A DNA stretch of 64,000 nt from Chara braunii (taxonomy: Eukaryota > Plantae > Charophyceae): contig BFEA01000044.1 in assembly GCA_003427395.1 (NCBI GenBank), positions 2,548,448 to 2,612,447 of the forward strand, given 5' to 3'. Both the position numbers and the translations under genes were made by a program. The notes under the pieces are model-generated. The model had not been told where the DNA came from and ran no database searches. It saw only the letters and a list, made by a program, of their open reading frames with translations. This document shows, in pieces, positions 10,421 to 23,805 of this stretch. Each line of letters begins with the position of its first letter. Within the stretch, counting starts at the first letter, position 1.

Positions 10421-12410
10421 CACAGGAATCGGGAGGGACCAGTCGGAGAAGACAGGCAGGATCGGCAAGTGGAAAGGAAGGGGTAATGCATATGACGCAG
10501 CAGCAACATCAGCAAGCGGGGCTTGGCAACCATGCAGCACCACTCCGCAGCCGGGTCGTCGTTCGGAATACTTGCAGACGGACCAGTTTTTCACATCCCA
10601 TCCCCCTCCGTTTTTTCCTTTTTTGTCTTTCATTTTTTTTTTTCTTTTTTGTCTTTTTTCCTTTTTTCCTTTTTCGTTTCTTTCCTTTTCCTTTTCTTTT
10701 TCTTCTCTCTTCTCTTTGGACCCTGTCGTTTTTCTTTTGTCGTTTCTTTCTCTTCTGGCTTTTTTTCTTTTCAGTGAGTTAACCTTAAAAAAGAAAGCTA
10801 TGCCTCAAGGTCTGTGCACTACCCTCCTGACTCGTCTCATCTCGGTAATATCCTGCTCTAATTGACGGCAATGCGATCATCCAGGAAACACAAAGCCCAT
10901 TTGGGCGCCAGGTTTGATTTCAAAAAGCGCAGGGTGTGATTTCAAAAAGAGTCAGAACCGGCGGGTTCAAATAGTAAGTAGGTGTAGTGTATAGGAAGTA
11001 CTATAGTTAGAACCAAGCATCATCATCGAAGCAGGAGCGGCAATCCGACGGCATTCTCGGAAGACCTTTGTCATACTCTTCAGCGGACGAGCAACGGAGG
11101 GACTCAGCGGGCGATATGGACTTTCCACTGGACCTCGACGCGCTTGCGCCACTGGCCCTCGACGCGCTTGCGGCCCGGAGGGAGGTGCACGATCAAGAGA
11201 CGGTATTCCTCTAGTCGCGGTACCTCGATTCATGCATCATGGAGCGCCCGACACCGCCATCCCTTCCGAATGAGCAGCCTCCAGCCACAGCAGCTTCCCA
11301 TGCGGCACAACACCTCGCCTTCCTCCCTCCCCCCTCCTCCATGCACACCCTCATCGTCAGCACGATACCTTTCACAACTCTTTTCTCACTCGCGCTCCTC
11401 CCTAACCTTCTTATCCTCTGCATCCTCTTCCTTTGCTGCCAATCGGAGCGTGTGCTTCTCGCACCTGCTAAGTATCGTAGGGCATACCTCTGCGCACTCA
11501 TATGCACGACCTGCTTCCTCATCAAAGCTTGCTTGGATTCGCAGCTAGCTTGCTCGCAGGAACTATGGCGTGAAGAATGTCACCAGAGATGGAACGTAAT
11601 GAGGAAGATGGCGCAGCGGAGCACACGGACACAGTTTGTCTCCTCTCAGCGTTTATCACATTTCTGGCCATCCTCACTTTCATGCTATTCATCGTCACGC
11701 TTCCCCTACCACCACAGCAGCCTTGCCTCTGTCCCAACCACCACCGCCGCCCCACAGTCGTGCGCCCTGAGCAATGCTCTCCCGTGCAGTCCTCCTCAAC
11801 TTTCCTGTCATAACCGCCTTCGTCATCCCCACCAATCCCCCCATCCAAGACGCCAGAGCCCAACTCCTCCGCGAATCCCAAGACGCTCACACAACCCCCT
11901 CCCATCCACAAGTGCTCTGTATATCTCAGTCGAGAGAGATGCCCCTCTGATGAAGCTGCTGGTGGCGCTGTCGGCGCGAATACCCTTACAAGGGTATCCG
12001 CCCTGGTTTTTGTAAGTGACGGAAAATAAGTTTCATTTGAACTTTGAGTACATTGCACGAGTCGCGGTTGTGTTTTGTTCATGCTGACTGAATGGTTGGT
12101 TAGAAGCAAAAAGTGTGTGGGCGTCTAGTTTCGAGACGTGCGTGATGTTTCCTATTGATATTATAGAGTCGGCGTTTCCACCAGCATAGTTTTATTTTTG
12201 ATTAAAGCTAGGAAGGGTTGTATCTATGTTGAAGTGACCATGGTGCGTGTGCGCTCATATTGAAGACGTCATGGACAGTAATGTTGCTTTTGGGCGGTGA
12301 TTGGAGCATGCGAGAGAAAATAGAATGCGAGCAAGGGCCTTCGCGCGGTGGATGCGGGAGGTTGACTGTAGTGGACTTAGTTGACAGGCCGGGGTGTGGC
12401 CTCGGAACGC

Positions 12411-12972
12411 TCAGTGGACCCGCGCGCTATGAAACACCCGCGGACGCGTCCGCGGGGTCGAGCTCGGATGGCGGCCGACCTCATCCGCACCGCGGACGCG
12501 AATTTACCATATTTTTCCTGAATTAAATAATGGGTAGAATTTAAAAAAATAAAAAACAGAAAAGACGGAGAAGAAAAATTGAAAAATAAATTAAAAAAAA
12601 AGGTTTTTTTGGGGGGGGGGATTTTTGGTTGGCAGTTCATGTCAATATACAATACTTCATGTGTGTGGGTGTGTGTGGGCCTGTTGGGGGTGGGGGGCCG
12701 ACNNNNNNNNNNNNNNNNNNNNNNNNNNNNNNNNNNNNNNNNNNNNNNNNNNNNNNNNNNNNNNNNNNNNNNNNNNNNNNNNNNNNNNNNNNNNNNNNNG
12801 GGGGGGCGACCCCGCCCCCACCAATCAATCAATCAATCAATCAACCAATCAATCAATCAACAACAACTAAAAAAAGGCAAAACCGAATGAATCAATCGAT
12901 CAATCAATCAATCAATCAATCAACAAAAAAAAAAAAAAAAGCAAACCCGAATGAATCAATCGATCAATCAAC

Positions 12973-13003
<31 letters not shown>

Positions 13004-13350
13004 AGGCGGGGTGGGGAGATCCCCCCCCCACCAATCAATCAATCAATCAACGGAAAAAGAATAAAATGCGTTGTTTTTTTTTTTTTCTTGCACTCACAGC
13101 CTAACCCCCCCAACCAAAAATTTATTTTTTTTATTTTTTTTTGTTCGAGGGGGTGGGGCTGGGGTTGCACCGCCCCATGGCGCTTCCCGAATCCCTAACC
13201 CCCCTCCCCACTGGCCGCCAGGTGGCCTCAAAGCCGCGCGGCCGCGCGGACACGTCCGCGGGGTCGCGGATCTGGCCGTGGCCGCGGACTTGGCCGCGCT
13301 TGGCCGCCGGGGGGGGGGATTCGTAGCCTGCGCGCCGCGTGGTACCCACT
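12411..13350. mobile_element. Possible nested MITE-like insertion with GC-rich imperfect inverted ends, (AATC)n tracts and an N gap
   Basis: The cagtggacccgcgcgctatgaa start loosely mirrors the ttcgtagc...gcgtggtacccact end. No counterpart seen in copy B. Sequence quality looks poor and no TSD was found. Confidence 0.4.
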
Positions 13351-21539: not shown

Positions 21540-21860
21540 GGATGATGGAGCTTGCCTCCAAGGCCACGAGAGTTGGCTGCCACCATAGGCTTGAACCTGT
21601 GTACCACCCACTCCTCGCAAGGTGCAGAAGAGGGTGTGGTGATCAACCGCCTTGGCGGTTGTTTAGCGTCGAGAGATTAACCCCTCAAGGCGCGTGTCAG
21701 CCGACACTTGAGTGTCGAACGTGACCCTCGAGATCATCGAGGATCGCGTGGTTATGGGTACTACATAGTACTCCATCGATGCGACTCCTTGCATACTCTT
21801 GCATTGCTAGTCGATATGACAAAGCCCTAGCGTTCACGCGGTTTTATCTTGAGTCTCGCG
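21540..21860 (+). ncRNA. Dense multi-hairpin domain (copy A)
   Basis: Consecutive stems: catagg/cctgtg, accac...gtggt, caaccgcc/ggcggttg, cgacact/agtgtcg, ctcga/tcgag, gtact/agtac. Highly similar to 44740-45050. Confidence 0.6.
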
Positions 21861-21870
21861 CGCGACACTT

Positions 21871-22006
21871 AAGGTCCGAATGTGGTAGGATTGTTTGGGT
21901 TATTACATCCTTTAGCAGATGGTTTAAAATTAATGATAAAAGAGCCTATTCTACCAAGTAGTGCTAATTTATTCATCTTTATAATGGCTCCAGTCATTAC
22001 ATTTAT
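21871..22006 (+). pseudogene. nad1: Mitochondrial nad1 fragment (NUMT) inserted in copy A
   Basis: Translates to [44 protein letters not shown], the plant-type Nad1 N-terminal region. AT-rich. Absent at the equivalent site in copy B (about 45060). Confidence 0.93.
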
Positions 22007-23805
22007 TTTCGTGCTAAAAGGTTATGGGTTGGATACTGAAAGGACTAAGAGAGTTTTTTTTTTGTATGTATTTTAATTTTTGTGTAGTGTAACGTGTGGT
22101 GTGTGAAATGCATCCTAGTCGACCGACAATGAGTCGTGCTTGAGACCTCAAACCCCCAATGCGTCGACTCGTGTGCGGGTCAGATCTGGGGCGTTAACTG
22201 CACGTACCCCCTATGCTACAGCGAACAAGAAACGCCCTCGGTCGGGCCACCTCTGCGATTGCATACAAAAAGTCTTCGCACGTGCTTCGATAACTCAGTG
22301 GGATACGCTCACTCAAAGGATTGTGACAGCTCCCGCGGGTGGAGGTAAGTTGTACCTCGCGTAACCCTATCATGTCGTAGGGGTTCGCGAGAGGTATGGC
22401 TGACGCACTCGGCCGGAGCGGCAAAACGCTCTGCTACAAAGTCCTACAAAATCCTGCATGATGCGGTCGGGAGGATCCCCTTGTGAGATCGATGCGCTTG
22501 ACAGCGCAACAGAAAGGCCTCAGGGGTGAGTCGACATGTGGACACAACGCACAGATGCGTCGCTTTTTTTGTCCGGCATAAAGCTTGATGCGGGCTCTTT
22601 CTTTCATTCTTTCACCACCTCCGCCCAAAACCTCGCACCCAAACTTGCCACATGTTGCTCCCTTGCAAAACTGATGCTTTGGCAATTAATTTCGTAAAGA
22701 TCTCTCGACTCGTCGCCTCATTGCACGAAGCTAGTTTCTCTGGTTTCTTTTTTTGTTTGTCTAAATTTCTGGTTTTCTGTTTTTCGAACTCTTTCCCGTT
22801 TCTTTTTTTGTTTTTTTCCTTGTTTGCTTTTTTCCTTTTTTTCTCTTTTTCTTTTTTTATTGTCAATTGAAATATTGTTGTCCCCTCGAAGCAGGAGGCA
22901 TGTGACGTTCCTTTGTGGACAAGGCTTGGGACTTCCTCCCTCCACGACACGTGATCCTGCAATGTGTGTCGATCCTGCTCTCTTAGATGTATGTATGACC
23001 TTCATTGTGCAAATTATTCACTGTGTTTTTCGAACCATCTCATCACTGTGACTGCGATTGTGGATGACTCTGTGATTGTTAGTATCCCATCGCTACGACG
23101 GGTGAGTACAATAAGTGCCCTTGAGGCTTTCTTGTGACTACGACACGCGGCACTCCTTTGCAATGACGGGTCGAGACCCCCCTCCCCCTCCCGACAGCGC
23201 GGCATGCGGTCTCGCAGCATGCACCGCAACACCGGTTTTCCTTATGATGTATGTACATTCCCCTCTGTGTCGTCAGCAGTTGTGAATCGTGCGACCCATC
23301 TCACCACCATGAATGTGGTTTATATCATTCGCTTTGCGTTTTGTAAATCATCTCACCACCGTGTATGTGATTTGTATTCGGTTATGAAATGTATGGTTGT
23401 TATCAGTATCTCATAATACGTTAAGAACCCCGTAGAGTAGGAACCCCGTTGGCACTCTTATAACTACGACGCGTGGTGCTCCTTCGCAATAATGAGTCGA
23501 GTTCCCCTCCTTCCCCTCCTTCTCCTCCTCCTCCTCCTCCTCCCCTTCCCCCTCCCGTAGGCACGACACGTGGTTTCGCAGCATGTATCGATTTTCCTCA
23601 TGGTGTGTGTATGTCCTCCTTTGTGCGGTCATCAAGAGTAAGTTTGCAGGTCATCTCTCCACCTTAAATAGGAATTTGGAGGCACAAATAAATCTTTTTT
23701 CGGTCGTTTATCCGTCACTAAGTGATTTTGGATAAATCATGAAGCCCTACGACTTTTTAGATTATACGTCAGCTCATATCGTTTTTCTCTCTCGCCCCCT
23801 TTCCT

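What the first reader, a model, noticed from the sequence alone, without database searches (positions are those of the whole stretch)
11969..22503. Giant non-coding mobile unit family (10.5 kb and 7.6 kb) with modular structured-RNA cargo
Seen: two diverged, colinear copies share the same first 31 bp (containing the palindrome ataccctt-ac-aagggtat), short imperfect terminal inverted repeats (TGTCGGCGC / GCGCT(C/T)GACA) and perfect 4-bp TSDs. There are no internal long direct repeats and no credible ORF. Module order is conserved: rRNA chimera, hairpin/donor motifs, structured leader, UAAGUU array, UACG repeats, multi-hairpin domain, conserved 3' block. Established: TG...CA ends with a short TSD indicate a retroviral-type DDE integrase, and the longest plant LTRs I know (Ogre/Sukkula types) are roughly 5-6 kb. 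Inference: either exceptionally long solo LTRs of an uncharacterised gypsy lineage, or non-autonomous Ginger-like DNA elements.
Basis: partly seen in the sequence, partly recalled or inferred. Interest (0 to 1): 0.82.

Follow-up and report, generated by a model that had tools for sequence, protein, structure and literature searches.

The report
Giant solo LTRs in stonewort alga
Two 7.6 and 10.5 kb non-coding repeats in a Chara-type alga are likely the left-over end repeats (solo LTRs) of an undescribed retrotransposon lineage; they would be longer than the longest plant LTRs in the papers read here, and they carry captured scraps of ribosomal RNA and of a mitochondrial gene.

Summary
Confirmed: two colinear units (11969-22503; 38370-45971), about 75% identical in shared blocks, with TG...CA ends, the same first 31 bp, 4-bp target duplications and no transposon protein remnant. 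The host is Chara. Reads show a sharp, highly repeated 3' end with a bias to flanks holding CG. One metagenome contig (L041; 1 of 55 pattern hits) carries the same 3' block, followed 2 nt later by a primer binding site identical to the published Athila-type tRNA-Asp site. The 3' end is therefore likely an LTR end, and the units likely solo LTRs of a non-chromovirus Ty3/gypsy lineage, not Ginger DNA transposons (no 40-270 bp terminal repeats). Net of gaps and duplications they are about 7.3 and 9.9 kb, against 6.5 kb for Ogre. The Asp primer site with 4-bp NCGN-like duplications matches no lineage tested in full. Cargo: two LSU rRNA pieces in both copies; further LSU, SSU and nad1 pieces in one. 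Not shown: paired LTRs, polypurine tract, polyprotein, expression.

The parts
11965..11968 (.). left target-site duplication of E1 (GCGC)
11969..22503 (+). E1, likely solo LTR, 10,535 bp (about 9.9 kb net of N and duplications)
11969..11999 (+). invariant 31-bp 5' end with TGTCG terminus and 8-bp palindrome arms; likely U3 integrase attachment end
   Evidence: role inferred
12400..13330 (.). E1-only GC-palindrome and AATC-microsatellite stretch with an assembly gap (12703-12799); possible nested insert
   Evidence: no clear ends found
14338..14448 (+). LSU rRNA fragment, sense; shared with E2 39227-39340
   Evidence: (72%, E 2e-10), references checked
14500..14607 (-). LSU rRNA fragment, antisense; shared with E2 39411-39450
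   Evidence: (58.5 bits, E 7.8e-14 on a hand-picked 136-base stretch)
15669..15730 (+). LSU rRNA fragment, sense, E1 only
   Evidence: 87%, E 9e-16
17108..17232 (+). SSU rRNA fragment, sense, E1 only
   Evidence: 75%, E 9e-14; Rfam alone weak (E 0.74)
17815..18203 (+). conserved block (E2 41767-42153) ending near a TATAAA; candidate promoter or R start
   Evidence: role inferred
18339..19911 (+). array of UAAGUU-loop hairpins (E2 42313-43308); same loop, different stems in the two copies
   Evidence: 9 hairpins with stem >= 4 in each copy, 0 in the other 46 kb
19901..20298 (+). 98-100% identical internal duplications, possibly assembly artefact
20329..21859 (+). conserved multi-hairpin block (E2 43449-45052)
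21873..22007 (+). nad1 (NADH dehydrogenase subunit 1) fragment, likely mitochondrial, absent from E2 and skipped by other copies
   Evidence: PF00146, E 9.6e-14; joints skipping 132-144 bp and RNA reads that run on into unrelated sequence
22021..22503 (+). conserved 3' block, likely U5, ending in GACA; shared with E2, E3 and L041
22504..22507 (.). right target-site duplication of E1
38366..38369 (.). left target-site duplication of E2 (CCGG)
38370..45971 (+). E2, likely solo LTR, 7,602 bp (about 7.3 kb net); its 3' tail resembles the commonest type in the reads
45972..45975 (.). right target-site duplication of E2
5105..5634 (+). E3: third 3' block of a related family, same terminus, followed by CTGT; its 5' end is not in the window
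3762..4895 (+). decayed reading frame upstream of E3's 3' block; relatives only in Chara braunii gene models; no family

Best explanation
E1 and E2 are likely solo LTRs, about 7.3 and 9.9 kb net, left by recombination between the two LTRs of a very large non-chromovirus Ty3/gypsy retrotransposon of Chara. Shown: TG...CA ends with a short imperfect inverted repeat, 4-bp duplications, no coding remnant, a highly repeated sharp 3' end, and, in a relative (L041), a tRNA-Asp primer binding site 2 nt behind the same end. Inferred: the parent is copied through RNA primed by tRNA-Asp; its integrase cuts with a 4-bp stagger and prefers a central CG; the long LTRs recombine often, which leaves solo copies between matching duplications; the hairpin-rich 3' half is R/U5 and folds in the transcript (packaging or priming signals); rRNA and nad1 scraps entered the tolerant U3/U5 spacer DNA by template switching or break repair and were carried along.
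For: L041 aligns to the 3' blocks of E1, E2 and E3 at 74-78% (E 2e-36 to 2e-59), the same distance as E1 to E2; it was 1 of 55 pattern hits, the other 54 show no such alignment. In it the shared terminus is followed after 2 nt by 19 bases identical to the FIDEL primer site, given there as complementary to tRNA-Asp (motif also); chance about 1e-10 for an 18-mer at six offsets. Depth on genomic contigs falls from about 99,000 to 272 across the E2 end; single-copy flank 6-11. RNA run X7 matches about 1.9 flank bases per read against 0.33 expected, and the best-supported loose end lies behind CCG in both X1 and X7; NCGN is the Phygy signature among non-chromoviruses. 3' block: 14 of 84 predicted pairs change on both sides, 1 of 500 shuffles. 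A 6-kb LTR cap in the reference survey would have hidden such elements.
Against: The primer site rests on one 1,749-bp contig that is closest to E3, not to E1 or E2, and its 900 bp behind the site show no gag. No primer-site row appears among the 12 loose-end rows shown of 89 at the E2 end (hidden rows hold under 10 of about 43 X7 reads each). Only about 3.5 kb align between the copies, so the native LTR length is uncertain. E3 has a reading frame within 0.2-1.3 kb of the same 3' block, which is unusual for an LTR interior. The CG bias is deduced from bin means, not from counted sites. The covariation rests on 4 related sequences and a structure derived from them. Poly(A) runs X6 and X8 gave 67 and 81 reads on 1.9 kb, some of them from nad1, with no start, end or splice signal.
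Confidence: 0.8

Rival explanations
1. LTR-derived, but the native LTR is shorter (within the known range up to 6.5 kb); E1 and E2 were lengthened by nested inserts, captures and assembly duplications, or are rearranged derivatives that include former internal sequence.
For: Only 3,543 of 7,602 bases of E2 align to E1; E1 holds 0.57 kb of duplications, a microsatellite stretch and copy-specific rRNA and nad1 pieces; E3 has a reading frame close to the same 3' block; L041's first 380 bp do not align to E1 or E2.
Against: Shared blocks are colinear from base 1 to the last base, including two LSU pieces in the middle; no inner LTR end or primer site; E2 is still about 7.3 kb after removing N and duplications.
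Confidence: 0.12
2. Non-autonomous cut-and-paste element moved by a Ginger1-like integrase, having taken its 3' end from an LTR or sharing it by descent.
For: TGTNR start, 4-bp duplications with CCGG in E2 and a CG-centred bias, as in Ginger1; Ginger1 groups with Athila/Tat integrases; flanks behind the E2 end are unrelated to each other (agreement 0.35 over 32 contigs).
Against: Terminal inverted repeat is about 10 bp and imperfect, against 40-270 bp; Ginger1 elements are 2.6-7 kb; no transposase remnant; a tRNA primer site follows the same end in L041.
Confidence: 0.06
3. E1 and E2 are the two LTRs of one old element spanning 11969-45971.
For: Same orientation, related sequence.
Against: Each has its own, different target duplication; no primer site in the window; the interval holds a DUF659 gene and satellites, no gag-pol match.
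Confidence: 0.01

Closest known systems
Athila (non-chromovirus OTA Ty3/gypsy; FIDEL, Athila4)
   Same: Primer binding site identical over 19 bases to FIDEL's tRNA-Asp site, in relative L041; tRNA-Asp is the main Athila primer (72%).
   Different: Athila has 5-bp duplications (95%) without sequence preference and LTRs of 1-2 kb; here 4 bp, CG-centred, 7-10 kb.
Phygy (Physcomitrella non-chromovirus)
   Same: 4-bp duplications of the NCGN type.
   Different: Phygy uses tRNA-Trp (81%) and whole elements are 7.7-10 kb, the size of one unit here.
TatII / Ogre (Tat clade)
   Same: TatII allows 4-bp duplications and a tRNA-Asp primer; Ogre has very long LTRs (1.9-6.5 kb) and arrays of repeats in non-coding parts.
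   Different: No NCGN preference reported for them; units here exceed 6.5 kb; the extra RNase H that defines Tat could not be tested.
Ginger1 DNA transposons
   Same: TGTNR start, 4-bp CCGG-type duplications.
   Different: No 40-270 bp terminal inverted repeats, no transposase, primer site in a relative.
Cassandra and other small-RNA-bearing non-autonomous LTR elements
   Same: rRNA-derived sequence inside an LTR (abstract start of PMC10886601 in listing).
   Different: There it is 5S-like in a short LTR; here several decayed LSU and SSU pieces in both orientations in a giant unit, with no sign of use as a promoter.

Membership tests
Solo LTR of a Ty3/gypsy element | TG...CA termini with a short inverted repeat | tested here: met
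Solo LTR of a Ty3/gypsy element | 4-6 bp target-site duplication around a single unit | tested here: met
Solo LTR of a Ty3/gypsy element | no internal LTR pair, primer site or coding region | tested here: met
Solo LTR of a Ty3/gypsy element | same 3' end followed by a tRNA primer site in another copy | tested here: met
   one relative, L041, 74-78% identical in the 3' block; not seen for the E2 subfamily itself in the rows shown
Solo LTR of a Ty3/gypsy element | same 5' end preceded by a polypurine tract in another copy | tested here: inconclusive
   the 5' end found 0 contigs in two collections; no reads were laid on it
Solo LTR of a Ty3/gypsy element | paired copies around gag-pol in gypsy order | not testable with these tools
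   no genome held
Athila | tRNA-Asp primer site | tested here: met
   L041 848-866
Athila | 5-bp target duplication | tested here: not met
   4 bp in 2 of 2 complete units against 95% 5 bp
Athila | RT/RH/INT phylogeny | not testable with these tools
   no linked polyprotein in hand
Phygy | 4-bp NCGN duplication | tested here: met
   GCGC, CCGG; read bias; E3's CTGT fits only if a CG has decayed
Phygy | tRNA-Trp primer site | tested here: not met
   L041 carries the Asp-type site
Tat (TatII/Ogre) | additional archaeal-type RNase H | not testable with these tools
   no linked polyprotein
Ginger1 | TGTNR termini | tested here: met
Ginger1 | CCGG or CCGT/ACGG duplication | tested here: inconclusive
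   1 of 2 units is CCGG, the other GCGC
Ginger1 | 40-270 bp terminal inverted repeats | tested here: not met
   about 10 bp, imperfect
Ginger1 | integrase-like transposase in the unit or an autonomous partner | tested here: inconclusive
   none in E1 or E2; partner not searchable

The most novel reading that the evidence does not exclude
Chara holds an abundant, undescribed non-chromovirus Ty3/gypsy lineage with LTRs of 7-10 kb (whole elements then likely above 25 kb), combining an Athila-type tRNA-Asp primer with CpG-centred 4-bp targeting, with a multi-kilobase structured R/U5 and LTRs that collect and spread rRNA and organellar fragments; it would push the Athila/Tat/Phygy group back into streptophyte algae and set a new size record for plant LTRs that standard LTR finders miss.
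Probability: 0.6. Interest if true: 0.7.

Novelty: new variant of a known kind. Interest (0 to 1): 0.58.

Why it matters
The mix of primer type and target preference links features that are split between moss Phygy and vascular-plant Athila, which bears on the origin of plant non-chromoviruses and of Ginger1. How reverse transcription copes with multi-kilobase U3 and U5, and whether CpG-centred insertion follows methylation, become testable in a cultivable alga.

Tried and rejected
Rfam at gathering score over the window and at E <= 10 over E1 found no family; the rRNA pieces appeared only with short stretches or BLAST against fetched rDNA. No tRNA genes. E1-versus-E2 translated matches carry stops in all frames, so the blocks are non-coding. 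A frame from the conserved multi-hairpin block found no protein. 5'-end pattern: 0 hits in viral and metagenome contigs; 3'-end pattern: 0 in viral contigs, 54 of 55 metagenome hits were chance. No RNA holder listed; RNA lays gave no joints or start/end pile-ups. Minus-strand splice-donor motifs (7 motif hits in E2, 2 in E1) suggested a spliced gene; no protein support was found. The E3 frame has no Pfam family, and the Atlas lead for its homologue (phage portal, score 0.90, 102-121 of 256 features, pLDDT 0.29) is within the range the tool calls doubtful and was rejected. Earlier findings: none. Literature: ten searches listed no paper describing this family or Athila/Ginger in Chara; the Chara genome paper is not held, Repbase and Dfam are not available, and preprint supplements are closed, so an existing unnamed consensus cannot be excluded.
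Full report
Observation. Both units are real and exactly bounded: E1 11969-22503 between GCGC and GCGC, E2 38370-45971 between CCGG and CCGG. E2 interrupts a 92-bp satellite whose other units hold one CCGG at that place, so the second CCGG is a true duplication. Six aligned blocks are 73-79% identical and colinear, with the first 31 bp invariant; they cover 3,543 of 7,602 bases of E2 and 3,683 of 10,535 of E1. 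Removing N and near-identical duplications leaves about 7.3 and 9.9 kb. Neither end recurs inside a unit. Translated matches between the copies carry stops in every frame, and Pfam finds no mobile-element domain (not scanned by read-through: E2 38370-38599 and 45233-45971).

Host and abundance. A neighbouring gypsy pol is 80-87% identical to its best Chara braunii gene models, and all 89 hits carry that name. On contigs of DNA run X1, 13,721 records lay on 1.9 kb of E1's 3' part, with summed depth up to about 600,000 per bin against 6-11 in the flank, and 2,289 on 166 bp at E2's end, where depth drops from about 99,000 to 272. The tool warns that this is no copy number; overlapping contigs inflate it, so hundreds to many thousands of copies is my inference. 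Loose ends on E1 resemble E2, so E2's tail is the commoner type.

Target preference. At E2's end the best-supported loose end is behind the flank's CCG in both X1 (32 contigs, agreement 0.35, that is unrelated flanks) and X7 (12 reads, agreement 0.51). X7 reads match about 1.9 flank bases each against 0.33 by chance. With the duplications GCGC and CCGG this points to a CG-centred 4-bp site. It is deduced from bin means; 77 of 89 loose-end rows were not shown.

The decisive contig. A gapped pattern for the 3' end gave 55 metagenome loci; one, L041, aligns to the 3' blocks of E3, E2 and E1 at 74, 78 and 77%. [quoted passage not shown] The motif does not occur in the window with up to 3 mismatches. 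So the 3' block is a U5 end in at least one family of this group, and units bounded by it, without an inner LTR and with matching duplications, are solo LTRs. Limits: one contig, nearest to E3; no gag in the 900 bp behind it; no purine tract, LTR pair or polyprotein seen.

Cargo. BLAST against seven fetched rDNA contigs (four checked as eukaryotic rDNA) found in E1 three LSU pieces (two sense, one antisense) and one SSU piece at 56-104 bits, against a best of 40 bits in ten shuffled windows; E2 shares the first two, more decayed (48 and 42 bits). Rfam confirms the antisense piece and is weak for the SSU piece. E1 alone has a 45-codon nad1 piece that other copies skip. Mixed orientation and decay argue for passive capture; template switching and break repair are both possible.

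Structure and RNA. UAAGUU loops close hairpins 9 times in each copy and never in the other 46 kb, with different stems in the two copies. The 3' block shows 14 of 84 pairs changed on both sides (1 of 500 shuffles), on four related sequences with a structure fitted to them. Fold z-scores are strong only in E1's 3' half. Poly(A) runs X6 and X8 gave 67 and 81 reads on 1.9 kb, X7 1,496 on both strands, with no joints, starts or ends, so expression of the unit is not shown.

Comparison. Ogre LTRs reach 6.5 kb (PMC6431247, passages); LTRs above 3 kb are called uncommon (PMC3485330, passages). Ginger1 shares TGTNR ends and CCGG-type sites but has 40-270 bp terminal repeats (PMC2836005, passages and section 7). 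The units work like solo LTRs of a non-chromovirus; they fail membership of Athila (duplication length), Phygy (primer) and Ginger1 (terminal repeats), and Tat cannot be tested.

Novelty. Ten paper searches listed no description of this family; a 300-genome LTR set has no Chara entry in its one supplement held (PMC8282616); PMC4983792 (passages) was not relevant. The Chara genome paper was not held, and Repbase and Dfam could not be checked.

Verdict. A new variant of a known kind: likely giant solo LTRs (0.8); native length above the known range about 0.6. Interest 0.58.

Noticed in passing
window 3505-5634: Third family member (E3): same 3' end, preceded by a decayed reading frame whose only relatives are four Chara braunii gene models (33-50% over the alignment), and by a 114-bp fold-back at 3505-3875 where it breaks into a chromovirus RT. 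Either an ORF inside an LTR or an accessory ORF of the parent element.
   Followed up: partly
window 840-3500 (minus): Broken chromovirus-type Ty3/gypsy pol (RNase H, integrase, SH3, weak chromodomain), 80-87% identical to many Chara braunii gene models.
   Followed up: partly
window 48588-51700 (minus): Second gypsy fragment with gag; its LTR end is followed after 3 nt by a TGGTATC-type primer site, which I recall as the initiator-Met type; differs from the site in L041.
   Followed up: partly
window 28856-30166 (minus): 437-codon frame with DUF659 (E 5e-17), recalled as hAT-transposase related.
   Followed up: no
window 34627-38359 and 45972-47136: Adjacent 91-bp and 92-bp satellite arrays; E2 splits the 92-bp array at a CCGG; one X7 read runs through that junction.
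   Followed up: partly
window 40587, 40848, 41109, 15572: Repeated ACTTAC(C/T)TG motifs with similar downstream sequence: splice donors on the minus strand, or U1-like on the plus strand (recalled); unexplained.
   Followed up: no
L001-L030: 30 contigs in prokaryote genome assemblies carry a eukaryotic LSU rRNA motif; the four checked are complete eukaryotic rDNA units, that is contamination.
   Followed up: partly
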